64,000 nucleotides of DNA from Candidatus Micrarchaeota archaeon (GCA_013425335.1 JACCLG010000050.1:17532-81531); one strand, 5' to 3'; shown: positions 10,007-39,958, numbered from the stretch's first letter. Notes: generated by a model from the sequence alone, not told the origin. Program-made: numbers and translations.

Positions 10007-11530
10007 TCACTCGTACTTTTCCAGTATGACCTTCTGCATCTCCACTGCCTCCATAGTTCTTGAAAGCTCAAGCGCCATGGTGAGTTTTGTTTCGCTCTCT
10101 GCAATGATGTCAAACAGCACATCGCCAACCTTCACCTTGTCCCCCTGCTTGACATGCATGTACACCCCGGCACCCTTGCTCTTTGGGGCTCCTGCAGTCC
10201 TGGCGATTCTGGATATAATCCTGTTGTCAACGTGATGTATCCTGCCCTCCTTCTCCGACTTCACCTCTGCCTTGAAGTTGCCAATGGGTATGTCATCCAC
10301 TTTCACCTTCGGGTTCCCGCCCTGGGCCTCTATTATCTCCCTCATCTTCTCCAGCGCCTTTCCGGATTTCAGTATGTCGGTTGCGACTGCATAGCCCTTG
10401 CCCTTCTCCACCTTGCCGCACAGCTCAAGCAGGGCTCCTGCGAGCACCAGCGACTTCTCAGTGAGGTCTGCCGGGCCGTCCCCCTGCAGCACTCTCAGCA
10501 CATCCCTCGCCTCAAGAGCCGGACCTATGCCGTTGCCGATGGGCCCGTTCCCAACAGTTATGTAGCACTCAACCTTCATATTCAGTTTCTTACCAATCTC
10601 CAGGAAATCCTTGGCCAGCCCGTTCGCAATGCGCGTGTCCTCTATCTTCGCACCTCTCCCGACAGGTATGTCTATAACAACGTATTCAGCTCCTACAGAC
10701 TTCTTCTTTGCCAGTATGCTTGCCAGCAGCACTCCTTTCGGGTCAAGTCTCATGGAATTCCTTATCCTTATCAGCTTGTCGTCTGCAGCTGCAAGGTCCA
10801 TTGCTCCTCCCCACACGATGCACCCGTGGGTCTTGAGCACGACATTCTTCATCTCATCAAGCTTGAAAGTCACAGGAGCCAGCACCTCCATTGTATCCGC
10901 GGTGCCTGCAGGAGACGTGATTGACCTTGCCGAGGTTTTCGGTATGTAAAGGCCAGCTGCAGCTATTATCGGGACAAGAATCATTGTAGTCCTGTTCCCT
11001 GCAACCCCGCCTGAGCAGTGCTTATCCACAACCGGGTGCACCCCCAAATCCAGTATGCTTCCTGAACCGACAATTGCATTTGTGAGGTAAACAGTCTCAT
11101 CGTTGCTCAAGCCCCTTATGTACAGAGAAGTAACAAATGAGGCGAGCTCAGTCTCGCTGAGCTTGTTCTCCATAATTTCGTCTATGACAGTCTTTATCTC
11201 CTCATCCCCCAGGCTCCCCCCGTCCATTTTCTTCTTTATAATCTCAATTGAGGCAGGGTTGCTTGTTATGCTCACCTCAATCATGTCGCCTCTCTTCGCG
11301 CCTATGCCGCAGGAAGTGTCTGAAAAAAGCCCTATCTCCCCCCTTTTCACAAGCGTGTCGCTGGAGTCGACAATTGCGGTGCATCTCTTCTCCCCGTTCT
11401 TCAGCGAAACCCTGTCCCCTATAATCATATCCATATCATGTGCCTCATCCTCATTGAGCACGACAATATCCTTCCCGGTCTCAATGTCAAATGTCCTGGC
11501 TTTCAGAACATAGCTTCCTTTCTCAACCAT
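10007..11530 (-). CDS. AMP phosphorylase (thymidine phosphorylase family, archaeal DeoA-like)
   Basis: 507 aa; pyrimidine-nucleoside phosphorylase family motifs (HCSGGVAGNRTT, GAMDLAAADDKL); length and N-terminal extension typical of archaeal AMPpase. Confidence 0.8.
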   Translation of the reverse strand: MVEKGSYVLKARTFDIETGKDIVVLNEDEAHDMDMIIGDRVSLKNGEKRCTAIVDSSDTLVKRGEIGLFSDTSCGIGAKRGDMIEVSITSNPASIEIIKKKMDGGSLGDEEIKTVIDEIMENKLSETELASFVTSLYIRGLSNDETVYLTNAIVGSGSILDLGVHPVVDKHCSGGVAGNRTTMILVPIIAAAGLYIPKTSARSITSPAGTADTMEVLAPVTFKLDEMKNVVLKTHGCIVWGGAMDLAAADDKLIRIRNSMRLDPKGVLLASILAKKKSVGAEYVVIDIPVGRGAKIEDTRIANGLAKDFLEIGKKLNMKVECYITVGNGPIGNGIGPALEARDVLRVLQGDGPADLTEKSLVLAGALLELCGKVEKGKGYAVATDILKSGKALEKMREIIEAQGGNPKVKVDDIPIGNFKAEVKSEKEGRIHHVDNRIISRIARTAGAPKSKGAGVYMHVKQGDKVKVGDVLFDIIAESETKLTMALELSRTMEAVEMQKVILEKYE

Positions 11531-11538
11531 GCTACCAC

Positions 11539-12459
11539 CTAGTACAACTTTTCAATTCCTTCCCTCATGACAACATTCAGCAGGCTTTGCGGGGTTATGA
11601 CACCCATCTCGGTTATGTAAGCAGTAAGGTATCTTGCAGGGGTGACGTCAAATGCCGGGTTCCTCACCTCAACTCCCTTCAGCTTCTTTGGGTTTGTTAT
11701 CTCCTCAGGGCTCCTCTCCTCTATCCTCTCAATTCCGCCCCACAGGGTGAGGGGGTCGAACTTAAAGGTCTCCGCAGCAGAGTACATCCCTACACCATGC
11801 TCATGGGCTATCATTGCAATTCCGCATGTGCCAATCTTGTTGATTAAGTCCCCTTTTGCAGTTATTGCATCTGCCCCAACCACAACAGCATCAACATCCT
11901 TCATGAAATGGCTCACTGCAGAGTCGACTATGAGGGTGACCTTCAAGCCTGCCCTGCTGAGCTCTTTTGCCGTAATCAAACCTTGGAATCTGGGCCTCGT
12001 CTCGGTGCATATCACCTCCATGCCCTTGCTCAGCTCATTTGCCCTTTCAAGTATAGACACCACAGAGCTGCTGTGGCAGTGAGTGAGTATCACAGAGCTT
12101 CCTGAGAGCTCCCTTCCCCCGTACTCGGCTATCCTCTCCTCATCCCTCTTCATCCTCCTGAAATACTCCAGCTCCTCCTTTTCAACAAGCTTCCTGAGCT
12201 CTACAACGTCCCCCTTGCTCCTCCTCATGTGCGCAAAAAGAGCTCTCAGAGCATTTCTGAGCATGGGCTCTGTAGGCCTTGCTGAAGCCAGCTCGTCAGC
12301 TGCAACAAGGAACTCATTCACAAGCTCCTCCCTGCTTTCTGCCTTGGATTTTCTGGCAATGACGCCCATTGCTGCCATTGCCGCCTTTGCGACATTCCTG
12401 GCTCCCTGTATCCTGAGCCTCTTTATATCCTTTCTTATCCTCTCAACCTCTCTCTGCAA
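11539..12459 (-). CDS. Ribose-1,5-bisphosphate isomerase (eIF-2B alpha/beta/delta-like, e2b2 family)
   Basis: e2b2 family features (ILTHCHSSSV, GADAITAKGDLINKIGT); directly downstream of AMP phosphorylase, as in the archaeal AMP salvage pathway. Confidence 0.75.
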   Translation of the reverse strand: MQREVERIRKDIKRLRIQGARNVAKAAMAAMGVIARKSKAESREELVNEFLVAADELASARPTEPMLRNALRALFAHMRRSKGDVVELRKLVEKEELEYFRRMKRDEERIAEYGGRELSGSSVILTHCHSSSVVSILERANELSKGMEVICTETRPRFQGLITAKELSRAGLKVTLIVDSAVSHFMKDVDAVVVGADAITAKGDLINKIGTCGIAMIAHEHGVGMYSAAETFKFDPLTLWGGIERIEERSPEEITNPKKLKGVEVRNPAFDVTPARYLTAYITEMGVITPQSLLNVVMREGIEKLY

Positions 12460-16559: not shown

Positions 16560-18236
16560 GTGCCAATGAGGAAGCTTTTCTTAATACTGCTCTTAATGCC
16601 TCTTCTGGCAGCGCAGCAGTCTGTCGGAAGGGAGGGTCTCAAATGGGTGTTCAGCACAGACGACTACGTCATCTCCTCCCCAGCAGTACACAATGGTGTT
16701 GTATTCTTCGGCTCTGCAGACGGCTACTTTTATGCGCTTAACTCGACAAATGGAACTCCCCTCTGGACATACGGGAGGGTCGGCAGGATACAAACCTCGC
16801 CTGCAGTCTCCGATGAGATGGTCTTCTTCGGCTCAAACGACGGATACCTTTATGCCCTTTTACTCAACGGGACGCTTGCATGGAAGTTCCAGACGGACGA
16901 CATAATTCTCTCCTCTCCAGCCTTGTCAAGCGGCATGGTCTTCTTCGGCTCAAACGATGGATACCTTTATGCCCTTTTACTCAACGGGACGCTTGCATGG
17001 AAGTTCCAGACAGGTAACAAAATAATATCCAGCCCCGCGTATGATTACGGGCTCCTTTACTTCGGCTCCACAGACGGCACCTTGTACGCATTTGACCCGT
17101 ATGCTGGAAGGATGCTGTGGAACTACACCGGAGAGGCGGCATTTGCCTCGTCACCCATAACATCAAACTGGATTGTGTACGCTGGCTCTGATGACGGCAC
17201 TCTCTACGCCTTCAATGCTTTCAATGGGACAGTTGTCTGGAAGCAGAAATACCCCGGCAAAATCCAGTCCAACTTTGCAATTTCGCCAAGTAACATATTG
17301 TATTTCTCCTGCAAGGACGGCAACATATATGCAGTCTACGCAGCCGACGGCAGCAAGTCCTGGAACATAACCACCGGAACTGAGGCGCAGTCGTCAGTGC
17401 ACTACGATGCCGACTCCGGCTTCAGCTATTTTGGAACCAGCGACAATAATCTCTACGCTGCGGATCCCCAGGGCCATATAGCATGGAGATTTGAAACAGG
17501 CAACTGGGTCATCTCAACCCCTCTCGATTACCGCGGAATACTTTATGTCGGCTCCTATGACGGGAATCTCTACGCCATATCTACAATACGCACCAGCTTC
17601 GCCTACAGCGAGATGAACGTCACCGGTCCTTTCGCTTCCATCAACGGCACATCCTACGCAGATACGGGCGTAAAATACGTTCAGGTCAGGTTCAACGAGG
17701 GGGAGTGGGAGAATGCCAGCGGGACAACGAGCTGGAGCTACACATGGAATGCATCCTCATTTAAGAACGGCGGGTATACCTTTGAGGCAAGAAGCATTGA
17801 CAATCTCAGCAATGCTGAGCTTCCGCCGTATTCCAGCTCCCTTGTCCGGCTCCAAAGCGTTGTCAGGAAGGAGATGATAGTATCGTATACCGCAACAGCC
17901 GTGGTTGGGCTGCCCATAAAGTTTGAAGTTAATGACAGTGACGGAAACCCAGTGCCGTATCCTGAAGTGACAATTTTCGGCAAGATATACCTTGGGGACA
18001 AGAACGGGGTTGTTGCCGCTGATGAGAAAGGCAACCCGATAAAATCCGATGCGGAGGGGCAGTTCAACTTCACTGTCAGCAAGCAGGGTTATATAACGCA
18101 GGAACGCACCCTGAAAGTTGAGAAGCTTGTAGACGCGCTTCCATACATTCTGGCTAGCATCGCAGTGCCGCTTGCCATCCTTCTGCCTTTGGCGTATCTG
18201 CTCATAAGGAAGCTGAGTAGCAGGAGGAAGCAATAG
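16560..18236 (+). CDS. PQQ-repeat beta-propeller protein, secreted with C-terminal TM anchor
   Basis: Signal peptide; multiple blades of the form 'FFGSxDGxLYA...G.xxW.F'; C-terminal hydrophobic anchor + RKLSSRRKQ; contains an internal 117-bp tandem duplication. Confidence 0.75.
   Translation: MPMRKLFLILLLMPLLAAQQSVGREGLKWVFSTDDYVISSPAVHNGVVFFGSADGYFYALNSTNGTPLWTYGRVGRIQTSPAVSDEMVFFGSNDGYLYALLLNGTLAWKFQTDDIILSSPALSSGMVFFGSNDGYLYALLLNGTLAWKFQTGNKIISSPAYDYGLLYFGSTDGTLYAFDPYAGRMLWNYTGEAAFASSPITSNWIVYAGSDDGTLYAFNAFNGTVVWKQKYPGKIQSNFAISPSNILYFSCKDGNIYAVYAADGSKSWNITTGTEAQSSVHYDADSGFSYFGTSDNNLYAADPQGHIAWRFETGNWVISTPLDYRGILYVGSYDGNLYAISTIRTSFAYSEMNVTGPFASINGTSYADTGVKYVQVRFNEGEWENASGTTSWSYTWNASSFKNGGYTFEARSIDNLSNAELPPYSSSLVRLQSVVRKEMIVSYTATAVVGLPIKFEVNDSDGNPVPYPEVTIFGKIYLGDKNGVVAADEKGNPIKSDAEGQFNFTVSKQGYITQERTLKVEKLVDALPYILASIAVPLAILLPLAYLLIRKLSSRRKQ
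16818..17051 (+). repeat. 117-bp (39-aa) near-perfect tandem duplication inside the PQQ-repeat gene
   Basis: 16818-16896 and 16935-17013 are identical over about 79 nt except one transition; they encode MVFFGSNDGYLYALLLNGTLAWKFQT twice. Confidence 0.9.
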
Positions 18237-30661: not shown

Positions 30662-31507
30662 GTGGCAGAAGAGAAAGCAAAAATTACGGGCCTACTAAAT
30701 AAACTCTACGTAAAAGACTGCATAGAATTCATGCGTGAGTTACCGGAAAAATGTATAGACGTTATTGTAACTTCACCTCCTTATAACATCGGCAAAGATT
30801 ATTCAGTTTATAATGATGACAAGACTAGACAGGGATACCTTGACTGGATGGAAAAGGTAGCGGTTGGAAGTAAAAGAGTTCTAAAGGAGAATGGTTCTTT
30901 CTTCTTAAATGTTGGTGGCAAACCATCTGATCTTGTAATACCGTATGATGTTGAAAACCGTTTTAGGAGGCATTTTATTTTGCAGAATGATATAATCTGG
31001 GTTAAATCTATAGCAATAACTAAAGAAGACGTAGGGAAGAGTAATGGACTGGACCATGATGTTTTGGTAGGGCACTATAAACCGATCCAAAGCAGCCGTT
31101 TTCTGAATAATTGCCACGAGAACATCTTTCACTTTACAAAAGAGGGTAAAACAAGCCTCCATAAACTTTCTATCGGTGTCCCATATCAATACAAATCAAA
31201 TATAGCACGCTGGGGCAAAAAACAGGATATACGAGACAGAGGCGATGTTTGGTTTATCCCTTATGAGACGATACAGGAGCGTCGTCCGCATCCTGCTGTT
31301 TTTCCAAAGAAACTCCCTCTATTATGTGTAAAATTACATGGAGTTAAGAAGGATATGATTGTTTATGACCCATTTGTTGGAATAGGAACTACTGCTTTAG
31401 CTTGTTTAGACTTAAAAGTAAACTACTTAGGTACTGATGTAGACCATAATTACATCAAAATTGCAAATGAAAGAATTGAGGAAATAAAGGCACAATTAAA
31501 GCTTTGA
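30662..31507 (+). CDS. DNA methyltransferase, beta-class amino-MTase (N4-cytosine or N6-adenine)
   Basis: Motif IV TSPPY near the N-terminus and motif I DPFVGIGTT near the C-terminus, which is the circularly permuted beta-class order. Confidence 0.8.
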   Translation: MAEEKAKITGLLNKLYVKDCIEFMRELPEKCIDVIVTSPPYNIGKDYSVYNDDKTRQGYLDWMEKVAVGSKRVLKENGSFFLNVGGKPSDLVIPYDVENRFRRHFILQNDIIWVKSIAITKEDVGKSNGLDHDVLVGHYKPIQSSRFLNNCHENIFHFTKEGKTSLHKLSIGVPYQYKSNIARWGKKQDIRDRGDVWFIPYETIQERRPHPAVFPKKLPLLCVKLHGVKKDMIVYDPFVGIGTTALACLDLKVNYLGTDVDHNYIKIANERIEEIKAQLKL

Positions 31508-32002
31508 TTGTGATCCAGCCATACTGCTTAAAAGTTGGAGTGCTTTTTCACGAGAAATTTTTGTAGTAGTGCCCAATTCTCCAGCTTTCCACCACGAACG
31601 TACTTGTTCTGAAGTTATTATCCAAAAAGGAACATCCGGGAATTTTTCTATGTCCGACACTATATATCCCTTAATCTCTTTGAGTTTTACTAAAAATCCT
31701 TCTTCCTCAAAAGAACGCTTCGAACCAACCATATAACTGGGGGAAAAATATATTCCACCCTTGCTAATACTTCTGACTTCCCACTTTCCACCTTCTCTAT
31801 CTAAGAGGTCAAAACCTGCTCCTTCACTTGAGGCAAGCTTCCCATGCAAAACCTCATAAGCAAGCCGTCTTTCCAATAGAAATGAAACACGGCGCCCATC
31901 TGTAAAATAAAGGCGAACATCATCCTTGCCTATTTTTAATGCCTTAGCAATTTCTTCAATATTCCATTTGAGATAACCTTCGATTTTGCCCATGACAATC
32001 AC
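31496..32002 (-). CDS. Putative restriction endonuclease (PD-(D/E)xK-like) partnered with the methyltransferase
   Basis: 168 aa; candidate catalytic pattern FDLLD...EVRS; tail-to-tail 12-nt overlap with the MTase gene, typical of type II R-M pairs. Confidence 0.35.
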   Translation of the reverse strand: MIVMGKIEGYLKWNIEEIAKALKIGKDDVRLYFTDGRRVSFLLERRLAYEVLHGKLASSEGAGFDLLDREGGKWEVRSISKGGIYFSPSYMVGSKRSFEEEGFLVKLKEIKGYIVSDIEKFPDVPFWIITSEQVRSWWKAGELGTTTKISREKALQLLSSMAGSQSKL

Positions 32003-32010
32003 CGAGAGAC

Positions 32011-33975
32011 TCAGCTTTTATCTTTAAAATCATCGATTAAGCCATTTATATTACTAAACAGAGAGTCATTTATAACACTAAGCAGTTTTGTGAAAGACCG
32101 TTTTAAGTTATTTGGATAATTGGTAAAGTCATATCCAATTTGTTTAGCTAATTCTGAGCTTTCTTTCTTTTTTTGTTTATCATTTGATATATGCGTCAGA
32201 TGTCTACGGATACCCCTAAGCAATTTAACAGAATTTTCAATCTCATTTTGCTGCTTTTCACTTGCGTTTAGATACTTCGAAAATTCTTTTAAAGCTTCAA
32301 CATCCCCGCTGCAACTTTTGCCTAACTTATCTTCTATTTCTTTTTTATTTAAGTTTTCAATAATTAATTGATTTAGTAAATCAACACCCTGATCAAATTC
32401 TAAAGGCGTTTGTACCTCTTTCGGGAAATAAACAATTTTAACCACTTTATCAGTCGGTATATCATGAAATAATCCAAAATTAAGTTTATTGTTACTAATA
32501 CCATTTGTCTCATTAATGCGTCCGATTATTGAAATCAGCGTCAATTCAGTAAGCGTACTACTTACCAGATCCTTACTATTCCCTACTAGTCTTTTTGAAA
32601 GCTCATCAGTTGCCTTGTTAATTTCTCTGAATGTTAGGCATTGACCATACTTTTTCTCACTAAATTCTTCATCTCTAATACTTTCGAGTTTAGTTTCAAA
32701 ATCCTCTTTCGATGGTTTTCTTTTGCGAATTAAAGCAAGAATAACTGGCAGTATACTAAGAAATACATTTATGCCCTGTCTTTTTGTAATTACATAGTTA
32801 TCCCTATCGTTCCACTGCTTTTCAAAACAACTCTTTATAGCGCTTAGATAGTTGATTAGTATTACCACTATCTCTTTTTCATCACGAGACTTCAATTCCC
32901 TCTCCATAAGTTTTGGAAGAACATAAAATTGACTATTACCAATCCACTTCTTAGTCTGCCATTCATGTATCCTAATTTTTTTATATAGAGGTGAATTCGG
33001 CATTTCATTTAATCTATGGACTACCACAGCAGTTCTTCCTTTAGTATCATCTATTTTCTGCAATCTAAATAATAACCAATTACGCAAAGTTGCGGGGACT
33101 CTTTTTTGATTATCATTAATCTCTGTGAAAAGAGATATTTTCCTAGTAGATTCTAACTCTTCGAAGCCAGTAATAATAATCTTAAATTTATCAGGGGTTT
33201 TTTGCTTCTTGCATTCTTTAAAACCGTATAATCTATGCTGACCGTCTATTACTTCAACCGATTGCTCTACTAATGGAATTTCGAGATAGCCTTGTTCAAA
33301 TACTCCTTTCTTAGTTGTTGTAAAATTAACTCGTTTAGTGAAGTTGACTATAATGTTATTCGCAAGAATAGCTTTTGGTTTGTCAAGAAAAGAACCTATC
33401 TCTTTTAGTCTTTTTGGTTTTAAATATCGTTGATAACCTAGCGGCGTATTCTCTTCATCTCGGTCAACTTTGGCGATTTTGAGTAAATCTGTCGCTCTCA
33501 TAGCAAATATGTACATTTTTTCTTTTCCTTGCTTGACTCGAATCGATGGTACTGATATTAACTGAGGAGGGATTTCAAAAAATTTCTCTATCAAAATTGA
33601 TGCATAATCTTTCTTGTAAAGTTTCGAATTTTGCCAATAACTCCCCAACATAGGTTCGTCCCATATTATTATTCCTCTACTTTTTGCCCATTCTTTATTT
33701 TTTGAGCTAACCCTCTTAGAATCGAAAACTAAAAGGCCACATATCTTGTTTATTTTCTTTCTATCTAATTCGTGGACTATGCCATCTAATTCCCGAACAC
33801 AAGTTTTAACATTACGCCCCTTAGCCATCGTACATTCAATTATTAGTTTAAACTCTCTGAAACTTGCAACCACATCAATTTCTTTATCAGCTAACTCAAT
33901 TTTGGTTTTTACTTTAAATCCTGCATTTCTAAAAAGTTTGGCTACCTTTTTTTCAGTTCGATTAAGTCTTGGCAT
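32011..33975 (-). CDS. Fusion protein: N-terminal Mrr-like PD-(D/E)xK domain + DGQHR (DndB-like, ParB/Srx superfamily) domain
   Basis: N-terminal restriction-endonuclease-like fold (IDVVA...IIECT...K); DGQHR motif EVIDGQHRLYGF; 654 aa. Confidence 0.6.
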   Translation of the reverse strand: MPRLNRTEKKVAKLFRNAGFKVKTKIELADKEIDVVASFREFKLIIECTMAKGRNVKTCVRELDGIVHELDRKKINKICGLLVFDSKRVSSKNKEWAKSRGIIIWDEPMLGSYWQNSKLYKKDYASILIEKFFEIPPQLISVPSIRVKQGKEKMYIFAMRATDLLKIAKVDRDEENTPLGYQRYLKPKRLKEIGSFLDKPKAILANNIIVNFTKRVNFTTTKKGVFEQGYLEIPLVEQSVEVIDGQHRLYGFKECKKQKTPDKFKIIITGFEELESTRKISLFTEINDNQKRVPATLRNWLLFRLQKIDDTKGRTAVVVHRLNEMPNSPLYKKIRIHEWQTKKWIGNSQFYVLPKLMERELKSRDEKEIVVILINYLSAIKSCFEKQWNDRDNYVITKRQGINVFLSILPVILALIRKRKPSKEDFETKLESIRDEEFSEKKYGQCLTFREINKATDELSKRLVGNSKDLVSSTLTELTLISIIGRINETNGISNNKLNFGLFHDIPTDKVVKIVYFPKEVQTPLEFDQGVDLLNQLIIENLNKKEIEDKLGKSCSGDVEALKEFSKYLNASEKQQNEIENSVKLLRGIRRHLTHISNDKQKKKESSELAKQIGYDFTNYPNNLKRSFTKLLSVINDSLFSNINGLIDDFKDKS

Positions 33976-34063
33976 ACACTCCCTCGGATTACAGCAATAC
34001 GATTATTATTTGTGTTGTATATTAAGCTTTTTATTACGATACTTGCTTCATAACATATAACGT

Positions 34064-34324
34064 TCACACGCTCACGTACGGAGCATATTCATCCATGTGA
34101 CTGAATTTCACCCTATCCTGCTGTTCTTTCTCCAGTTCCATTTTTATGTGTGACTCCACGAAGCTCTTCACGTAAGGATGTTCGTATAACACTATAACTT
34201 CATTAAATCCGTCCTCAAAATCTTTCTTTATATTAGTCAGGGCGTTCTTGTATTCAAAAGTAACTTCAACTGCAATTCTTTTCTTATGGGGGCTTTTTTC
34301 AGTAGGAAATACCGCAACATCCAC
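34064..34324 (-). CDS. Hypothetical protein (86 aa)
   Basis: ORF only. Confidence 0.3.
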   Translation of the reverse strand: MDVAVFPTEKSPHKKRIAVEVTFEYKNALTNIKKDFEDGFNEVIVLYEHPYVKSFVESHIKMELEKEQQDRVKFSHMDEYAPYVSV

Positions 34325-34348: not shown

Positions 34349-35050
34349 TTACTCCTCCAGCTCCTTAACCACCTTCACTATCCCCTCAAACCTCTCAATT
34401 GTGAAATCCGCAACATTCTCCTCCTCGGAATACCTCTGGCATCCATACTTTGCCAGGCAGGTTAGGAGCCCTGCTTTCTTTGCTCCAATTATGTCTCTCT
34501 CAGGATTATCTCCAACAAACAAAGCCTCCCTCGGAGACACTCCCAGCAGGTGAACCACCCTGAGGAAAGGCTGTTTCGACGGCTTCAACTCCTTTGTATC
34601 CTCATATGTCACAACAACGTCAAAAAGATGGTCCAGTCCTGAGAGGATGAGCCTCTGCCACGCCTTCTCCCTGGGCGCATCTGAGACTATCCCAAGCTTG
34701 TAGCTCTGCTTAAGCTTCTTCAGAGTGCCCACAACTTTCGGCCTCGGTCTCAGCAAAGCGTATTTCTTCTTCTCATATGCGATTATTGCAGCCTGCTTCG
34801 CATGCTCGTGCAGATGCGGGCCCAGAACATAGCCTGAGAGAAGCTCCTCAAACGTTCTCTGGTACTCTATTCCTCTTGTTTCGTATATTGCGAATATCTT
34901 CCCGTAAAGCTCCCTCTCCCCTGCCTTCACCCCTGCTTCCCGGATGGCTTTGGCTGCAGCAAGCGCGCTCTCCCTCTTGAAGCCTGAGAAGTCAAGCAAT
35001 GTGTTGTCCAGGTCAAAAACAATTGCCTTAATCATATAAAATCCACTCAT
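34349..35050 (-). CDS. HAD-superfamily hydrolase (subfamily IA)
   Basis: Motif I IVFDLDNTL, motif III K, motif IV GDNPERDI; GC-rich host-like composition. Confidence 0.75.
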   Translation of the reverse strand: MSGFYMIKAIVFDLDNTLLDFSGFKRESALAAAKAIREAGVKAGERELYGKIFAIYETRGIEYQRTFEELLSGYVLGPHLHEHAKQAAIIAYEKKKYALLRPRPKVVGTLKKLKQSYKLGIVSDAPREKAWQRLILSGLDHLFDVVVTYEDTKELKPSKQPFLRVVHLLGVSPREALFVGDNPERDIIGAKKAGLLTCLAKYGCQRYSEEENVADFTIERFEGIVKVVKELEE

Positions 35051-35096: not shown

Positions 35097-36089
35097 TCAG
35101 CTATCCCTATTCATATCTTTCCCAAATTCTTTAGATACTAATTCACGAAACGTTGTCTTAAATGAAACTTGGTGCTTTGGTCCACCCATAGTAATCTCCC
35201 TAAAAAGTTTTCGTGGCTCACCATCGATAACATATACTTTATGCTCCCAATTTAGACTAGAATCCCATCCTTCTTCTTTTACCCATTTTATATACTCGTT
35301 TTTAGCTTTGCAACCTCTCCAGCTTTCTTTAGCAGTTTCGATTTTCGTTTCTTTAACTTTACAGATATGAGTTATTGCACTGGGTAAACCATTTTTTCTA
35401 TGCGTTTCGATTACTGCTATATACAAAGCATCAGCAGCACCAGTATTTTGTACTATTATATTTTTTTCTTTTAATAGTTTGAAAAACATAGGCTTAGTAT
35501 ATACCGCAAGTACTTCAACAACATCTTCAATACGTTGTTCATCCATCTTTTTTATACTATTCATCATATCACCTATCCATACATTAAACATCTTCGTCAT
35601 TTTCTTTGTTGATTTTTCTGATAAGTCTATTAAATACTGCCAAGAATATGTTAAAAATTCTGTTTTTTCTAATTTCAACTCGCTTTGGATACTCTCAGTC
35701 TCTTCAGAAGTCAGATCTCGTTTTGTCACATATACCAAACGTATATTTGGAAAGTAGGCTCTTTGTTTGAGCAGGAAATCTGCATAATTCTTAAGCTGAG
35801 AAACGTATTCAGGTTTGTGTTCAATAATTTTTGATTCTATAATCACCATAAACTCATTTTGCTTGCGTATCATCAGATCAGTTATTCCATAAGGTTCAAT
35901 AGATTCTTGAGTTCTTATTCTAACGTCTCTGATTTTGGAATTGGGTAACTTAAGCTCTTTTAAGAATTCAGTAAAAACCTGTTGATCACTATGCAGAATG
36001 AAACCAAAAGAAATAGATAAACGATTTTCTGTTCGAGGATTTTTCGGCAATCTCGCTTGCACAAAGTCAAATATATTATCAATATTCAC
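35097..36089 (-). CDS. PD-(D/E)xK nuclease-family protein (330 aa)
   Basis: Motif ITDLMI...VIIESKI (D...ExK); AT-rich. Confidence 0.45.
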   Translation of the reverse strand: MNIDNIFDFVQARLPKNPRTENRLSISFGFILHSDQQVFTEFLKELKLPNSKIRDVRIRTQESIEPYGITDLMIRKQNEFMVIIESKIIEHKPEYVSQLKNYADFLLKQRAYFPNIRLVYVTKRDLTSEETESIQSELKLEKTEFLTYSWQYLIDLSEKSTKKMTKMFNVWIGDMMNSIKKMDEQRIEDVVEVLAVYTKPMFFKLLKEKNIIVQNTGAADALYIAVIETHRKNGLPSAITHICKVKETKIETAKESWRGCKAKNEYIKWVKEEGWDSSLNWEHKVYVIDGEPRKLFREITMGGPKHQVSFKTTFRELVSKEFGKDMNRDS

Positions 36090-36146
36090 TCTAACACCCT
36101 AAGCAATATTTACTATAATTCTGGCTGTACATATCTATTGTTTCCT

Positions 36147-37490
36147 TCAAATCTCGCACTTCCTTCCCTTTTCAGTAACCTCCGTATTCCTGCAAGCAAC
36201 ACCAAACATCCCAGGATTCATCGTATGTACTGGGAAAACCTTCTTGGCATCTATCTCCTTCACAATCTCAAAAATCTCGCTTTTGCTTGCGTGCCCGCTT
36301 GCGTGGAGCTGGTGCCTCCTCATCCCAAAATGCTCCAGCCAGTTCTCCAGCACATCATCAGAAACCTGCGACATCGGGTCCTCCTCGAAAGGCTCGCTCA
36401 TTGAATGGATGCACTCCCCCCCGGAAGGCCTCACATCCACCAGCTCAGTCAACTGCCAGAAGTCCAGCTCGAATATCAGCTCCTTCTGGTTGTCATGAAT
36501 ATACCCAGAATCAACGCAGTCGTCCATCATCGGCTTCTCCCATTTCTTGTATGTTTTCATCTTCCTGCAGTAAACCTCAATATGCTTATCCTTGAAAGGG
36601 TCAGAAAGCCCCAGAGGGTCGTCCTTCAAAGACTGAAGAAGATGGGCGGTTTTCATGGATGTCACCAGCTTCCTCCCGCTTTCCTTCGCAATATCATGGA
36701 AAGTCCTGAACCTGTCCAAGTCTTTCGGGTATCTCATTGCAAGCACAAGCCTGTCAGATTCATGGATAACTTTCTTGCTTTCCTCCTTCACAGACTCCTC
36801 GGAGTAATTCTTCCTTTTTTCCACGTCAAATACCCTGGTTCCTTCTATTATGAGTGCCTCAGGCTCAGCTTCCTTTGCCCTCTGGACGAACTCACGGGTC
36901 ATGTCGCCTCTTGGGCCGTGCTGCCTCAAGTCTCCGGTATAAGCAACCACCCCTTCAGATGTTTCAACAAGGAAGCCGTATGCGCCTGGAACGGAATGGT
37001 CGACATGGATTGGAGTTACCTTCAAATCCCCCACGGAAATCTCCTGCCCGCTCCTGAATTGCCTTATCTCGGCCCCTTCTGCGAAGTATCTGTTGCTCGT
37101 GGTCTCAGCATTGGAGTCAAGTATCTTCTTGGCAGTTTCTCCCATGTAGATAGGTATCCCTGGATGCAGATATTCCAGATGAGCCACATGGTCAAAATGG
37201 GCGTGGGAGATGAAAACCCCGTCAAACCCCGGTTCAGAGGCCTTCAGGTCAGTATGCTCAATTGCCTCATCTGAGTAAAGCCCGTTCAACTTCGGAATAA
37301 GCCCAAATTCGAAGTAATCCCTGAGCCCGAACCTGTCCCTTGGGGAGAGATAAGACTCTGGGACGAAATAATCATCCAGCAGGGAGAAGGACTGCCCGAA
37401 GTCCAGGAATATCCTTGTCTTCCTGTCCTCAAGCAGTATCTTGTTTCCGCCTATCTCCTTTACTCCGCCGAAGAATGTAAGAGATGTCAT
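36147..37490 (-). CDS. rnj: RNase J-like metallo-beta-lactamase / beta-CASP ribonuclease
   Basis: N-terminus FFGGVKEIGGNKILLE; MBL motif HAHFDH; beta-CASP region; about 447 aa as in archaeal RNase J. Confidence 0.75.
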   Translation of the reverse strand: MTSLTFFGGVKEIGGNKILLEDRKTRIFLDFGQSFSLLDDYFVPESYLSPRDRFGLRDYFEFGLIPKLNGLYSDEAIEHTDLKASEPGFDGVFISHAHFDHVAHLEYLHPGIPIYMGETAKKILDSNAETTSNRYFAEGAEIRQFRSGQEISVGDLKVTPIHVDHSVPGAYGFLVETSEGVVAYTGDLRQHGPRGDMTREFVQRAKEAEPEALIIEGTRVFDVEKRKNYSEESVKEESKKVIHESDRLVLAMRYPKDLDRFRTFHDIAKESGRKLVTSMKTAHLLQSLKDDPLGLSDPFKDKHIEVYCRKMKTYKKWEKPMMDDCVDSGYIHDNQKELIFELDFWQLTELVDVRPSGGECIHSMSEPFEEDPMSQVSDDVLENWLEHFGMRRHQLHASGHASKSEIFEIVKEIDAKKVFPVHTMNPGMFGVACRNTEVTEKGRKCEI

Positions 37491-38116
37491 TTATATCCCT
37501 CCAGCAGAAGCCTGCCCCAGAACGTCTGGGAGTACTTCTTTTCATCCTGGTTGAATGATACAAACCCAATGCTCTCAAGGTTGTTCAAATGGCGGAAAAT
37601 GCGGGGGTAATCCTTCCTATCCCCCTTCAAATCATCCACAATCTCTTTCAGCTTCCTGTCCTCTTTCACTGCTTCCAGAACCTTCTTCTGCGAGCTGCTC
37701 AGGACAAATGGAGCCGATATAGGGGGCAGCAGATCAGTTTTGAACCTATCAGCCTTCCTTATTGTTACAATGAGGTGCATTTTCCTCTTGACAAAGAAGG
37801 TTGCGTAGAGCAAAGCCAGCGCGATGTGCCTCTCCCCTCCCCCTATGTGGATGTAAAGCTCGTCATCTTTGCCTGTTGAATTGAGGATGCGGATGCACTC
37901 TCTGACTGCCTTCTCAAACGGTTCGTCTGTTATGAACTCCTCTCTGGTGCTTATCAATGTCTTTATCCTTTCGATTGTATCCCTGACCTTCTCCCTCTCC
38001 GAGCGGTCTTTTGAGTGAATCACAATGGCCCTGTCTGCCCCCGTTTTAACCGCATTCCTTAATGACTCTTCAAAAACCTTGGGGGTAAACCCCACCGACA
38101 TGACGTGAATCCGCAT
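37487..38116 (-). CDS. Csa3-like CARF + winged-HTH regulator
   Basis: N-terminal CARF-like Rossmann start MRIHVMSVGFTPKVF and HIGGGERHIALALL segment; C-terminal wHTH; 4-nt ATGA overlap with the RNase J-like gene. Confidence 0.5.
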   Translation of the reverse strand: MRIHVMSVGFTPKVFEESLRNAVKTGADRAIVIHSKDRSEREKVRDTIERIKTLISTREEFITDEPFEKAVRECIRILNSTGKDDELYIHIGGGERHIALALLYATFFVKRKMHLIVTIRKADRFKTDLLPPISAPFVLSSSQKKVLEAVKEDRKLKEIVDDLKGDRKDYPRIFRHLNNLESIGFVSFNQDEKKYSQTFWGRLLLEGYK

Positions 38117-38223
38117 GGATAGCTATTATCTGTGAAAGTATTTAAAGTTAATGTTTGCTTTTATAAAGCAACTATTTAATAAAAAGAGCAAACATTTAAA
38201 TAGAACTTCCTTCATAATTAAGG

Positions 38224-38409
38224 GTGGGTGATAGTTTGAACGGGAAATTGGTTAGAAGGAGAAGGAAGTGCGGGGGTGCCATCACGGTGGCTACGGAGGG
38301 AATGGTCATAGAAGTGGGCTCGGATAACATCAGGGAGTCTGAGCGCATCGTGAAGAGCATGCTGGAGAGTCTCAAAGAGCCGAAAAAGCAGGTAACCTAT
38401 ATCCGGTGA
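38224..38409 (+). CDS. Small hypothetical protein (61 aa)
   Basis: ORF only. Confidence 0.25.
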   Translation: MGDSLNGKLVRRRRKCGGAITVATEGMVIEVGSDNIRESERIVKSMLESLKEPKKQVTYIR

Positions 38410-39598: not shown

Positions 39599-39958
39599 CT
39601 ATCCCTTCTTCTTGGGGACTGGCAGAGGTTTTGCATAGGAAGCCAGTAGCTTTATCGCCCGCTCTAAGGCATACTTCACTTCTCTCTCATTCTTGCAGCC
39701 TGTACATATTACTTTACCGTTCTTGAAGAGCAGAAGAGATGCCTTTGGATCTTTGAGCTTGAGTATTGCACCTGGGAACTGCTCGGGCTCATACTCTATG
39801 TTCCTGACTTTCTTACCAAGAACATAAAGGTCAAGTTCCACTCCCAAATTGGCTGAAGCTACTATGTTCTCTATCTTGAATGATGGATCAATTGTAAGTT
39901 TCTTTGTCAATGAAACACCTTCTCTGCCCCCTTCCAGCCCATTTCTACTCAAAACCAC
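39599..39958 (-). CDS. Single-repeat TATA-binding-protein-like protein (half-size TBP paralog)
   Basis: 119 aa; one TBP repeat with hallmark KIENIVASANLGVELDL...YEPEQFPGAILKL...LLLFKNGKVICTG; in-frame stop 4 nt upstream of GTG start and next gene begins at 40016, so no second repeat is encoded. Confidence 0.6.
   Translation of the reverse strand: MVLSRNGLEGGREGVSLTKKLTIDPSFKIENIVASANLGVELDLYVLGKKVRNIEYEPEQFPGAILKLKDPKASLLLFKNGKVICTGCKNEREVKYALERAIKLLASYAKPLPVPKKKG

What the first reader, a model, noticed from the sequence alone, without database searches (positions are those of the whole stretch)
35097..38116. Csa3-like CARF-wHTH regulator gene overlapping an RNase J-like beta-CASP nuclease gene, beside a PD-(D/E)xK protein
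The 209-aa protein (37487-38116) has the N-terminal pattern of CARF domains (MRIHVMSVGF-TPKVF; later HIGGGERHIALALL) and a C-terminal winged HTH. This is the overall layout of Csa3 cyclic-oligoadenylate-responsive regulators. Its stop overlaps by ATGA the start of a 447-aa MBL/beta-CASP ribonuclease (HAHFDH), which suggests translational coupling. A PD-(D/E)xK-family protein (35097-36089, AT-rich) lies immediately downstream. No CRISPR array, Cas10 or CD-NTase is in the window. A CARF sensor wired to a beta-CASP RNase and a PD-(D/E)xK nuclease would be an unusual signalling-to-nuclease module, so this is either a defense or regulatory system or a regulated RNA-decay unit.
Basis: inference. Interest (0 to 1): 0.7.

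Follow-up and report, generated by a model that had tools for sequence, protein, structure and literature searches.

The report
Csa3-like regulator of nuclease operon
In a Micrarchaeota chromosome, a ligand-sensing Csa3-type transcription factor gene overlaps the start of the lineage's conserved RNase J-like nuclease gene; the same pairing recurs in several archaeal lineages with no CRISPR nearby, so a small nucleotide signal probably controls nucleic-acid degradation there.

Summary
All three ORFs, the ATGA overlap, the quoted motifs and the AT-rich PD-(D/E)xK gene are at the stated coordinates.

- **209-aa protein:** a real CARF plus winged-HTH protein of the Csa3 family, by Pfam, PADLOC and a fold match to Csa3 bound to cA4. 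The cA4-contacting G-F and G-x-R residues are invariant.
- **447-aa protein:** an RNase J-like beta-CASP enzyme, but not the euryarchaeal aRNase J. It belongs to an uncharacterised EF2904-like family found across many archaeal phyla.
- **The pairing is not universal.** A sister genome with a 93% identical beta-CASP lacks the regulator. It is still not chance. Nine of eleven informative contexts of this Csa3 subfamily have the beta-CASP adjacent. Other CARF-wHTH subfamilies flank the same beta-CASP/HAD pair in Micrarchaeota and Thermoplasmata.
- **Candidate operator:** a conserved palindrome, TTGC-N9-GCAA, abuts the TATA box.
- **PD-(D/E)xK gene:** a low-GC insert in a variable slot. Its only two known homologues also sit beside CARF-wHTH genes.
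- No CRISPR array or cOA synthase was seen.

Best reading: a ligand-responsive, autoregulated nuclease/phosphatase operon. The ligand and the physiological role (nucleic-acid turnover or defence) are unresolved. I rate it a new variant of a known kind, of moderate interest.

The parts
38155..38171 (.). Candidate operator: palindrome TTGCTTTTATAAAGCAA (TTGC-N9-GCAA with an A/T-only spacer). It abuts the BRE/TATA of the Csa3-like gene. A further GTTTGCT half-site lies at about 38186-38195.
   Evidence: Found. The palindrome core is conserved upstream of the Csa3-like gene in L001, L002 (variant), L003 and L005, where protein identity is 53-91%. Only 12 such palindromes occur in 1.37 Mb of fetched loci, and those in the window, L001, L003 and L005 are at these promoters. 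Binding by the protein is inferred.
38139..38146 (-). TATA-like box (TTTAAATA in gene orientation), about 22 nt upstream of the ATG of the Csa3-like gene. This predicts a leaderless or short-leader transcript.
   Evidence: Read directly from the sequence. A TATA-like box sits at the same relative place in L001, L003 and L005. Promoter function is inferred from standard archaeal promoter architecture.
38195..38202 (+). Mirror-image TATA-like box (TTTAAATA) for the divergent 61-aa ORF. It lies about 22 nt from that ORF's GTG start.
   Evidence: Inverted repeat I4; sequence. Inferred.
38224..38409 (+). Conserved divergent small ORF (61 aa) of unknown function. It shares the intergenic control region with the Csa3-like gene.
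   Evidence: Homologues sit in the same divergent position in L005, L093, L094 and L095 (phmmer 1e-13 to 1e-16). NCBI annotates it as a hypothetical protein. It has no Pfam match.
37487..38116 (-). Csa3-like CARF + winged-HTH transcription factor (209 aa).
   Evidence: Pfam Csa3_N scores 31 bits (gathering score 27). TIGR01884 scores 59.7 (cut-off 60.2). PADLOC CARF3 gives 1.6e-16 and Csa3 8.5e-16. The AF2 model has pLDDT 83, and its best Foldseek hits are Csa3 2wte, 6wxq and 6w11 at 1e-10 to 1e-8. G9-F10 (where the N-terminus is present) and G94-E-R96 (in all nine) are conserved in the subfamily. They match the cA4 contacts G9-F10 and G96/R98 of Csa3a (PMC8699464).
36147..37490 (-). RNase J-like MBL/beta-CASP nuclease (447 aa) of the EF2904-like family. 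Its start overlaps the Csa3-like stop (ATGA).
   Evidence: Pfam Lactamase_B_2 and RMMBL match. TIGR00649 RNase J family scores 77 bits, below its cut-off of 400. The best PDB match is 2az4 EF2904 at 1e-28. Bacterial RNase J scores about 1e-10 and archaeal Mpy-RNase J only 3e-4. All metal and beta-CASP motif residues are invariant in 23 homologues: H96, H98, D100, H101, H165, D187, E216, H396-A-S-G-H400 and H422.
35097..36089 (-). PD-(D/E)xK nuclease (330 aa), a low-GC gene occupying the variable slot between the beta-CASP and the HAD.
   Evidence: Pfam PDDEXK_4 scores 26.2 (gathering score 22.3), with a weak NucS_C match. D71...E85-S-K87 is invariant. Foldseek gives weak matches to NucS/EndoMS, restriction enzymes and the Can2 nuclease domain. 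GC is 0.33. Only two homologues are known, and both sit just downstream of a CARF-wHTH gene (directly after it in L091; one 213-aa gene between in L092).
34349..35050 (-). HAD-IA phosphatase (233 aa, TIGR02253-like), the recurrent partner of this beta-CASP family.
   Evidence: Pfam Hydrolase/HAD_2 gives 1e-29. TIGR02253 scores 151 bits (cut-off 169.75). Homologues lie next to or near the beta-CASP in about 20 loci, including Micrarchaeota and Nitrososphaeria.

Best explanation
This is a ligand-responsive, probably autoregulated operon. A Csa3-family CARF-wHTH dimer is predicted to bind the conserved TTGC-N9-GCAA palindrome that abuts the BRE/TATA of its own gene. It would respond to a small nucleotide ligand held in its CARF pocket, either a cyclic oligoadenylate-like molecule or another RNA-derived nucleotide. 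In that way it would set transcription of the translationally coupled RNase J-like beta-CASP nuclease, and probably of the downstream nuclease-slot gene and the HAD phosphatase.

The beta-CASP/HAD pair is the lineage's ordinary, vertically inherited nucleic-acid-degrading pair. The regulator is a lineage-specific add-on. The PD-(D/E)xK gene is a horizontally acquired occupant of a variable slot. In relatives that slot holds a YhaM-like 3'-5' exoribonuclease, an EEP nuclease, an HNH protein or unknown genes.

The output is regulated breakdown of nucleic acid to nucleotides and nucleosides.

Shown here: gene order, the overlaps, the folds, motif conservation, co-divergence of the two genes, and the conserved cis element. 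Inferred: DNA binding, the ligand, the direction of regulation, and the physiological role.
For: - **Family membership:** CARF-wHTH identity and an intact ligand pocket.
- **Coupling:** the 4-nt stop/start overlap is conserved in the window, L001, L002, L003, L093 and L094. In the P0129 contigs the two genes abut with no gap.
- **Tally:** 9 of 11 informative contexts of the subfamily have this beta-CASP adjacent.
- **Co-divergence:** pairwise identities of the two proteins track each other, 92/91, 95/73, 63/56 and 39/34 (beta-CASP/Csa3-like, %).
- **Cis element:** a conserved palindrome sits next to the TATA box in five loci and is rare elsewhere.
- **Unbiased set:** among 80 genome loci chosen only by their beta-CASP, 9 carry a full-length CARF-wHTH gene. 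All 9 lie within 3.1 kb upstream. The chance of that under uniform placement in the fetched flanks is 6e-6. These loci represent at least four architectures in Micrarchaeota, Thermoplasmata and an unclassified archaeon.
- **Core status of the beta-CASP:** at least 547 matching stretches in GTDB species genomes across many phyla, phylum-specific housekeeping synteny, and only one copy detected on the 1.3-Mb contig.
- **Slot contents:** slot genes in relatives are nucleases. L001 and L003 carry a YhaM-like OB+HD protein (9.5e-37), and L001 also carries an ExoIII-like EEP protein.
- **Native composition:** the regulator, beta-CASP and HAD have the genome's GC, whereas the PD-(D/E)xK gene has 0.33.
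- **Precedents:** Csa3-like regulators act outside CRISPR loci. HFX_2341 is a global regulator with homologues in CRISPR-less species (PMC11434293), and MM_0565 is another example (PMC7465815).
Against: - There are no experimental data on binding, ligand or regulation.
- The regulator is dispensable. A sister genome with a 93% identical beta-CASP lacks it, and most beta-CASP loci have none, including every locus whose record title names Bathyarchaeia/Bathyarchaeota among those fetched.
- No source of a cyclic-oligoadenylate ligand was found in the window.
- Motif 1 of Csa3 is only partly kept. The protein has S-V-G-F-T-P instead of T-h-G-F-(N/D)-E...R, so the ligand may not be cA4.
- The 57-nt and 46-nt spacers before the PD-(D/E)xK and HAD genes are AT-rich with TATA-like stretches. 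The operon may therefore end after the beta-CASP.
- Several Thermoplasmata loci are related by descent, so the number of independent associations is smaller than the number of loci.
Confidence: 0.55

Rival explanations
1. Antiviral defence module. A cyclic oligoadenylate is made elsewhere in the genome by Cas10 or a CD-NTase, or conceivably by the host cell of this symbiont. It binds the Csa3-like factor, which then induces nucleases (the beta-CASP RNase, the PD-(D/E)xK DNase and similar genes) as an infection response. This would be a transcription-level counterpart of type III CRISPR ancillary effectors.
For: - The cA4-contacting residues G-F and G-x-R are conserved.
- The locus is embedded among defence genes. 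The window has a type II R-M system and a DGQHR protein. L001 has an MmeI-like R-M system. L078 carries a 916-aa ORF that I read as a type I restriction subunit (not scanned) and L089 carries Methylase_S and N6_Mtase genes; L006 has a large downstream ORF that I read as a type I methylase (not scanned).
- The slot holds varied nucleases.
- The PD-(D/E)xK family occurs only beside CARF-wHTH genes and keeps a low GC typical of mobile defence genes.
- Its nuclease domain weakly resembles that of Can2/Card1.
Against: - No CRISPR array was found in the window or in any of 96 fetched loci.
- No Cas10 or CD-NTase was found among the scanned window proteins.
- PADLOC has no model that hits the beta-CASP.
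- The beta-CASP/HAD pair is a conserved core gene pair in many phyla that lack the regulator.
- Neither the regulator nor the PD-(D/E)xK protein was found on viral contigs.
Confidence: 0.2
2. Signal-clearing feedback loop. The MBL-fold beta-CASP enzyme, helped by the HAD phosphatase, degrades the very nucleotide that the CARF domain senses. It would act as a ring nuclease or phosphodiesterase, and the regulator would induce its own signal's removal.
For: - MBL-fold enzymes include cyclic-nucleotide phosphodiesterases. There are weak hits to NF041851 (1.5e-4) and faint Apyc1 hits on homologues.
- The sensor and the enzyme are tightly translationally coupled.
- A phosphatase is the constant partner.
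Against: - The enzyme has the full RNase J-type beta-CASP signature, including HxSGHA.
- Its family occurs in hundreds of species without any CARF neighbour.
- The cyclic-nucleotide phosphodiesterase hits are far below the curated cut-offs.
Confidence: 0.07
3. Adjacency without a regulatory link. The Csa3-like gene is a relic of a lost CRISPR locus or of a mobile island. It landed in the hypervariable flank of the beta-CASP gene and regulates other targets.
For: - Both flanks of the beta-CASP are hypervariable in Micrarchaeota. Homology to the sister genome L006 stops exactly at the ORF ends.
- The regulator is absent from most loci.
- Csa3-like proteins can be global regulators.
Against: - The 4-nt overlap is kept down to 53-56% protein identity.
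- The two proteins co-diverge.
- Independent CARF-wHTH subfamilies sit at the same place in other lineages, with a chance probability of 6e-6.
- The conserved palindrome lies in the gene's own promoter, and no second A/T-spacer copy of it was found in an intergenic position elsewhere in the window.
Confidence: 0.1

Closest known systems
Csa3a/Csa3b of Sulfolobales (cA4-binding CARF-wHTH regulators of type I-A CRISPR adaptation genes, arrays and DNA-repair genes)
   Same: Both have the same two-domain fold (Foldseek 1e-10 to 2wte/6wxq). The cA4 phosphate- and ribose-contacting G-F and G-x-R residues are present in both. Both have a palindromic site just upstream of BRE/TATA, as with the CAPPa element of Csa3a (PMC8699464).
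   Different: Sequence identity is only about 14%, and this is a distinct small subfamily with 13 clusters at E<1e-30. There is no cas gene or CRISPR array nearby. The gene is fused by overlap to an RNase J-like nuclease gene. The rest of motif 1 differs. The organism is a DPANN archaeon.
RtcR (bacterial CARF-containing sigma-54 activator of the rtcBA RNA-repair operon)
   Same: In both, a CARF sensor controls transcription of an adjacent RNA-metabolism operon that is not linked to CRISPR (PMC4012209).
   Different: RtcR uses an AAA+/sigma-54 output and a divergent CARF domain. Here the output is a simple wHTH acting on an archaeal TATA/BRE promoter, and the target is a nuclease rather than a ligase.
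Stand-alone Csa3-like regulators HFX_2341 (Haloferax) and MM_0565 (Methanosarcina)
   Same: These are CARF-like wHTH proteins encoded away from CRISPR loci that act on non-cas genes. HFX_2341 homologues exist in species without CRISPR-Cas. Several CARF-wHTH neighbours of the beta-CASP match Pfam HFX_2341_N.
   Different: No conserved operon with a beta-CASP nuclease or a HAD phosphatase has been described for either protein in the papers I could read.
RNase J (bacterial) and aRNase J (euryarchaeal); structural-genomics protein EF2904 (PDB 2az4)
   Same: All share the MBL + beta-CASP architecture and all catalytic motifs, including the HxSGHA motif typical of RNase J.
   Different: The protein scores below the RNase J family cut-off (77 against 400 bits). 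It is only marginally similar to archaeal Mpy-RNase J (3e-4). aRNase J is reported as restricted to Euryarchaeota and absent from Thermoplasmatales (PMC7144898), whereas this family is found in Micrarchaeota, Bathyarchaeia, Nitrososphaeria, Thermoplasmata, Asgard and other groups. Its closest solved relative, EF2904, has no known function.
Can2/Card1 (cA4-activated CARF-PD-(D/E)xK fusion nucleases of type III CRISPR)
   Same: Both show a CARF sensor associated with a PD-(D/E)xK nuclease. There is weak fold similarity between the nuclease domains.
   Different: Here the two are separate genes, the CARF domain is fused to an HTH, and any coupling would be transcriptional. The evidence rests on only three loci.

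Membership tests
Csa3 / CARF3 (CARF-wHTH transcription factors) | N-terminal CARF (Rossmann-like) domain | tested here: met
   Pfam Csa3_N scores 31 bits (gathering score 27) over residues 4-116. PADLOC CARF3 gives 1.6e-16. Foldseek top hits are all CARF proteins, led by Csa3.
Csa3 / CARF3 (CARF-wHTH transcription factors) | [quoted passage not shown] | tested here: met
   The AF2 model has helices 141-150, 156-162 and 167-182 and a beta-hairpin at 186-197, with pLDDT about 90. The Foldseek alignment to Csa3 is full length. TIGR01884 aligns residues 5-194.
Csa3 / CARF3 (CARF-wHTH transcription factors) | Score above the curated NCBIfam cut-off for TIGR01884 (cas_HTH/Csa3) | tested here: inconclusive
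   The score is 59.7 bits against a cut-off of 60.2, which is marginally below.
Csa3 / CARF3 (CARF-wHTH transcription factors) | Ligand-pocket motifs: G-F in the beta1-alpha1 loop and G-x-R in the beta4-alpha4 loop (cA4 contacts in Csa3a) | tested here: met
   S7-V-G9-F10 is present, and G92-G-G94-E-R96-H is invariant in the subfamily. These match G9-F10 and G96/R98 of Csa3a (PMC8699464). The (N/D)-E-x4-R part of motif 1 is not kept.
Csa3 / CARF3 (CARF-wHTH transcription factors) | Encoded in or next to a CRISPR-cas locus (typically type I-A) | tested here: not met
   No array was found in the window or in 96 related loci. No cas family was found among neighbours.
Csa3 / CARF3 (CARF-wHTH transcription factors) | Binds cyclic tetra-adenylate; homodimer | not testable with these tools
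   This needs ITC or DSF and size-exclusion chromatography or crystallography.
RNase J family (beta-CASP ribonucleases) | MBL motifs 1-4 and beta-CASP motifs A-C, including the HxSGHA motif | tested here: met
   H96, H98, D100, H101, H165, D187, E216, H396-A-S-G-H400 and H422 are invariant in 23 homologues. Pfam Lactamase_B_2 and RMMBL match.
RNase J family (beta-CASP ribonucleases) | Score above the curated cut-off of TIGR00649, or orthology with euryarchaeal aRNase J | tested here: not met
   The score is 77 bits against 400. Mpy-RNase J 5haa matches only at 3e-4, over residues 370-423. The best PDB relative is EF2904 at 1e-28.
RNase J family (beta-CASP ribonucleases) | 5'-3' exo- and endoribonuclease activity | not testable with these tools
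   This needs an enzyme assay.
PD-(D/E)xK nuclease superfamily | D...(D/E)xK catalytic motif on a restriction-endonuclease-like core | tested here: met
   D71...E85-S-K87 is invariant in all three family members. Pfam PDDEXK_4 scores 26.2 (gathering score 22.3). The N-terminal domain is modelled at pLDDT 76-92 and gives weak NucS/restriction-enzyme matches. The C-terminal half is not modelled.
cOA signalling defence system (type III CRISPR or CBASS-like) | A cyclic-oligonucleotide synthase (Cas10 or CD-NTase/SMODS) encoded with the sensor | tested here: not met
   None was found among the scanned proteins of the 64-kb window or in the annotated flanks of L001-L005. The rest of the genome could not be searched.
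cOA signalling defence system (type III CRISPR or CBASS-like) | Sensor domain fused directly to, or allosterically activating, the effector | tested here: not met
   The CARF domain is fused to a wHTH, not to a nuclease.
Type VII CRISPR Cas14 (beta-CASP effector) | Full-length match to the Cas14 model, with Cas7/Cas5 partners | tested here: not met
   Only residues 4-33 match NF045584, at 20.7 bits against a cut-off of 800. No Cas7 or Cas5 is nearby.

The most novel reading that the evidence does not exclude
In CRISPR-poor DPANN archaea, and in some Thermoplasmata, a CARF sensor couples a cyclic-oligoadenylate-like or RNA-derived nucleotide signal to expression of the cell's general RNA and DNA degradation machinery (RNase J-like beta-CASP, an accessory nuclease and a HAD phosphatase). 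Possible sources of the signal are an unrecognised synthase or the host cell's type III CRISPR response. This would be a CRISPR-independent nucleotide-signalling circuit that controls bulk nucleic-acid turnover or salvage, or an abortive-infection-like response.
Probability: 0.12. Interest if true: 0.8.

Novelty: new variant of a known kind. Interest (0 to 1): 0.5.

Why it matters
CARF-wHTH regulators are known mainly as CRISPR accessories. This finding shows a conserved, multi-lineage association of such sensors with a core RNase J-like nuclease and a phosphatase, with no CRISPR nearby.

It gives a concrete, testable entry point in three parts: one protein, one 107-bp promoter and a short list of candidate ligands. 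That entry point bears on two open questions.
1. What do non-CRISPR CARF domains sense?
2. What does the widespread but uncharacterised EF2904-like beta-CASP family do in archaea that lack aRNase J?

There is also a metabolic angle. Micrarchaeota cannot make nucleotides de novo (PMC5864196). A regulated nuclease/nucleotidase operon could therefore bear on how these symbionts recycle or scavenge nucleic acids.

Tried and rejected
1. **Canonical archaeal RNase J orthologue: rejected.** The match to Mpy-RNase J is only 3e-4, and the best relative is EF2904. The taxonomic range also differs from aRNase J.
2. **Type VII Cas14: rejected.** Only a 30-residue N-terminal match was found.
3. **The 209-aa protein as a universal housekeeping partner of the nuclease: rejected.** L006 and most beta-CASP loci lack it.
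4. **Virus- or plasmid-borne module: no support.** Viral contigs hold no relative of the regulator or of the PD-(D/E)xK protein. The core genes have native GC, and the window carries housekeeping genes such as FtsZ, ribosomal L10, aminoacyl-tRNA synthetases and NadA/NadC.
5. **A shared domain among the slot proteins (PD-(D/E)xK, YhaM-like, EEP, HNH and the 184-aa proteins): none found by BLASTP**.
6. **A second operator copy in the window that would suggest a regulon:** the only other A/T-spacer match lies inside the DGQHR gene.
7. **Sequence-only PDB searches with the 209-aa protein or its profile found nothing**. Only the fold search recovered Csa3.
8. **The PD-(D/E)xK structure model is poor** outside residues 25-165. 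The C-terminal domain remains unassigned.
9. **The 2020 CARF classification paper could not be read**. A prior mention of this neighbourhood there cannot be excluded.
10. **Operator motifs in the Thermoplasmata loci were not resolved.** High GC produces spurious ORFs and unclear intergenic regions.

Full report
**1. Observation**

| Coordinates | Length |
|---|---|
| 37487-38116 | 209 aa |
| 36147-37490 | 447 aa |
| 35097-36089 | 330 aa |

The quoted peptide strings are there. The stop codon of the 209-aa gene and the start codon of the 447-aa gene share the tetranucleotide ATGA at 37487-37490.

GC content separates the genes into two groups:

| Gene | GC |
|---|---|
| Csa3-like | 0.48 |
| beta-CASP | 0.50 |
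| HAD (34349-35050) | 0.50 |
| 330-aa gene | 0.33 |
| Block downstream of the HAD (30662-34324) | 0.32-0.39 |

The window is chromosomal DNA of a Micrarchaeota archaeon.
- The 447-aa and 330-aa proteins are 100% identical to NCBI proteins from a 91-kb Micrarchaeota contig.
- NCBI annotates the 209-aa protein as a hypothetical protein.
- The window also carries FtsZ, ribosomal protein L10, tRNA synthetases, NadA/NadC and Trm1.

**2. The 209-aa protein**

It matches the following models:
- Pfam Csa3_N above the gathering score (31 against 27 bits).
- TIGR01884 (Csa3) over its full length, just under the cut-off (59.7 against 60.2).
- PADLOC CARF3 and Csa3 models at about 1e-16.

Sequence searches of the PDB found nothing. 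An AlphaFold model (pLDDT 83) has Csa3 of S. solfataricus, both apo and bound to cA4, as its best full-length Foldseek hits (1e-10). Other CARF proteins follow.

In Csa3a, cA4 is held by two elements (PMC8699464):
- Gly9-Phe10 of the beta1-alpha1 loop.
- Gly96 and Arg98 of the beta4-alpha4 loop.

The window protein has S7-V-G9-F10, and G92-G-G94-E-R96-H. Both elements are conserved in the nine-member alignment: the second is invariant, the first in every sequence whose N-terminus is present. The remainder of Csa3 motif 1, (N/D)-E-x4-R, is not kept. The pocket looks functional, but its specificity is open.

An exhaustive HMMER search of 1.84 billion representative proteins gave three tiers:
- 13 clusters at E<1e-30.
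- 21 clusters at E<1e-10.
- 214 clusters at E<1e-3.

This is therefore a small, distinct subfamily of the Csa3 family.

**3. The 447-aa protein**

It has MBL and RMMBL domains and a sub-threshold match to the RNase J family model (77 against 400 bits). Its PDB relatives rank as follows:

| PDB relative | E-value |
|---|---|
| EF2904 (2az4), structural-genomics protein | 1e-28 |
| Bacterial RNase J | about 1e-10 |
| Archaeal Mpy-RNase J | 3e-4, over 50 residues only |

All metal-binding and beta-CASP motif residues are invariant in 23 homologues, including HxSGHA. That motif is typical of RNase J by my own knowledge. "RNase J-like" is a fair name, but this is not the euryarchaeal aRNase J.

The family's distribution points the same way.
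- They come from Micrarchaeota, Bathyarchaeia, Thermoplasmata, Nitrososphaeria, Methanosuratincola, Odinarchaeia and Atabeyarchaeia, at 42-67% identity.
- aRNase J is reported as restricted to Euryarchaeota and absent from Thermoplasmatales (PMC7144898).

In Bathyarchaeia and Thermoplasmata the gene sits in phylum-specific housekeeping synteny. Only one copy was detected on a 1.3-Mb Micrarchaeia contig. It behaves as a core gene. I found no functional study of EF2904.

**4. Is the pairing conserved?**

For the window's own Csa3 subfamily, the downstream context is:

| Context | Loci |
|---|---|
| beta-CASP immediately downstream, with the same 4-nt overlap or no gap | window, L001, L002, L003, L093, L094, P0129 contigs |
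| beta-CASP downstream after an inserted 184-aa ORF | L005 |
| beta-CASP adjacent but divergent | L089 |
| beta-CASP absent | L090, L096 |

That makes 9 of 11 informative contexts. Pairwise identities of regulator and nuclease track each other (beta-CASP/Csa3-like: 92/91, 95/73, 63/56, 39/34 %), as expected for long co-inheritance.

The pairing is not universal. In L006 the beta-CASP is 93% identical, but nucleotide homology to the window begins and ends at the ORF boundaries, and no Csa3 remnant is present.

A broader CARF3 profile showed that other CARF-wHTH subfamilies sit at the same place:
- L078 and L091 (Micrarchaeota-type): divergent from a HAD-beta-CASP or an AAA-beta-CASP-HAD operon.
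- L041 and L050 (Thermoplasmata): a tandem pair, divergent from HAD-beta-CASP.
- L063, L070, L076 and L085: a CARF-wHTH gene 1.6-2.0 kb upstream.
- L028: 3 kb upstream.

In the unbiased set of 80 loci chosen only by their beta-CASP, nine carry a full-length CARF-wHTH gene, and all nine lie within 3.1 kb upstream. The probability under uniform placement in the fetched flanks is 6e-6. Some of these loci are related by descent, so the number of independent events is closer to four.

**5. Cis element**

The 107-bp region between the Csa3-like gene and a divergent 61-aa ORF contains two mirror-image TTTAAATA boxes, each about 22 nt from its start codon. Between them lie the palindrome TTGCTTTTATAAAGCAA (38155-38171) and a further GTTTGCT half-site.

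The palindrome core, TTGCT-(A/T-rich)-GCAA, directly upstream of the TATA box, is conserved in L001, L002 (variant), L003 and L005. Only 12 such palindromes occur in 1.37 Mb of fetched sequence. Those in the window, L001, L003 and L005 lie at these promoters.

The position resembles that of the CAPPa site of Csa3a, which lies 12 bp upstream of BRE/TATA. I take this palindrome as the probable operator. Binding is inferred.

The divergent 61-aa ORF is conserved in L005, L093, L094 and L095. It has no recognisable domain.

**6. The PD-(D/E)xK gene and the slot**

The 330-aa protein passes Pfam PDDEXK_4, has an invariant D71...E85-x-K87 motif, and gives weak NucS, restriction-enzyme and Can2-nuclease fold matches for its N-terminal domain. 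The C-terminal half could not be modelled.

It is not part of the conserved core, and none of the roughly 90 other loci has a homologue. The position between the beta-CASP and the HAD is variable:

| Locus | Occupant of the slot |
|---|---|
| L001, L003 | YhaM-like OB+HD 3'-5' exoribonuclease (NF010007, 9.5e-37) |
| L001 (additional gene) | ExoIII-like EEP protein |
| L002 | 184-aa protein of unknown function |
| L005 | HNH protein |

Only two homologues of the 330-aa protein exist among 5.8 billion proteins. Both sit just downstream of a CARF-wHTH gene (directly after it in L091; one 213-aa gene between in L092). One of them (L091) is again beside a beta-CASP-HAD pair. All three have GC 0.33-0.34 in genomes of GC 0.39-0.50.

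In the window, though, it is a foreign insert.

**7. Absence of CRISPR and cOA machinery**

- No array-like repeats were found in the window or in any of 96 fetched loci.
- No Cas10, CD-NTase or other cas family was found among the scanned window proteins or the annotated flanks of related loci.
- The rest of the genome could not be examined.

**8. Mechanism**

The best-supported reading is a ligand-responsive, autoregulated operon. The Csa3-like dimer binds the palindrome at its own promoter. In response to a nucleotide-type ligand, it sets the level of the translationally coupled RNase J-like nuclease, and probably of the slot nuclease and the HAD phosphatase.

The recurrent content is a 5'-3'-type RNase, a 3'-5' exoribonuclease or DNase, and a phosphatase. 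This points to regulated degradation of nucleic acid to nucleotides and nucleosides. Micrarchaeota lack de novo nucleotide synthesis (PMC5864196), which makes a salvage or turnover role plausible.

The surrounding restriction-modification and DGQHR genes, together with the varied nucleases, make a defence role a serious rival. A feedback role, in which the enzyme degrades the sensed nucleotide, and a purely coincidental adjacency are less likely, for the reasons given under the rival explanations.

**9. Comparison and novelty**

It works like Csa3a, with a CARF-wHTH protein and a palindrome next to BRE/TATA. In concept it also works like RtcR, where a CARF sensor controls an RNA-metabolism operon.

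Stand-alone Csa3-like regulators acting on non-cas genes are known, namely HFX_2341 and MM_0565. What I did not find in the literature I could search is a conserved operon of such a regulator with an RNase J-like beta-CASP and a HAD phosphatase, in lineages and loci without CRISPR.

I rate it a new variant of a known kind, of moderate interest.

Noticed in passing
window 39599-39958 (-): A 119-aa ORF contains a single TBP repeat (Pfam TBP 2e-28, one stretch at residues 26-107). Archaeal TBPs normally have two repeats, and the homologues in L040 and L043 are 186 aa. It could be a single-domain TBP, a truncated gene or a second paralogue.
   Followed up: no
window 30662-33975: This is a low-GC (0.32-0.39) defence island. 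It holds an N4/N6 DNA methyltransferase (281 aa, + strand), a type II restriction enzyme (168 aa; PADLOC 9e-52) and a 654-aa protein with an Mrr-like N-terminus and a DGQHR (DpdB/DndB-like) domain. A homologous REase + DGQHR pair also lies downstream of the HAD gene in L002.
   Followed up: partly
window 36147-37490 compared with L006 6989-8322: Nucleotide homology (89%) between the window and a sister Micrarchaeota genome starts and stops exactly at the beta-CASP ORF. Both flanks are unrelated and carry different small wHTH-like genes and a large ORF that I read as a type I R-M methylase (not scanned). The gene's boundaries behave as hot spots for gene turnover.
   Followed up: partly
window 35097-36089; L091 7001-8005; L092 7001-7963: The PD-(D/E)xK family has only three known members. 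All keep GC 0.33-0.34 in genomes of GC 0.39-0.50, although they share only 37-50% protein identity. Each lies just downstream of a CARF-wHTH gene. The persistent low GC is unexplained.
   Followed up: partly
window 10007-12459 (-): A 306-aa IF-2B-family protein (ribose-1,5-bisphosphate isomerase-like; Pfam 2.5e-76) sits next to a 507-aa ORF that I read as a nucleoside/AMP phosphorylase. The 507-aa ORF was not scanned. Its close homologue lies 3 kb upstream of the beta-CASP in L006. Together they may form an NMP-salvage pair relevant to a nucleic-acid catabolism role.
   Followed up: no
window 38224-38409 (+): A 61-aa ORF is divergent from the Csa3-like gene and has its own mirror-image TATA box. 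It is conserved in L005, L093, L094 and L095 and has no recognisable domain.
   Followed up: partly
L001 11972-13713; L003 4657-5649: In two related loci, the gene after the beta-CASP is a YhaM-like OB+HD 3'-5' exoribonuclease. L001 also has an ExoIII-like EEP protein there. This gives an operon made only of nucleic-acid-degrading enzymes plus a phosphatase.
   Followed up: partly
L041 7899-9211; L050 3714-5023: Thermoplasmata carry two tandem, overlapping CARF-wHTH paralogues, divergent from a HAD-like gene and the beta-CASP. Both loci show the same synteny, with a GPN-type GTPase upstream and a zinc alcohol-dehydrogenase-like gene downstream.
   Followed up: partly
window 16822-17036: A 117-nt tandem repeat (1.8 copies) lies inside a PQQ/beta-propeller repeat protein gene. 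It is ordinary internal repeat structure.
   Followed up: no
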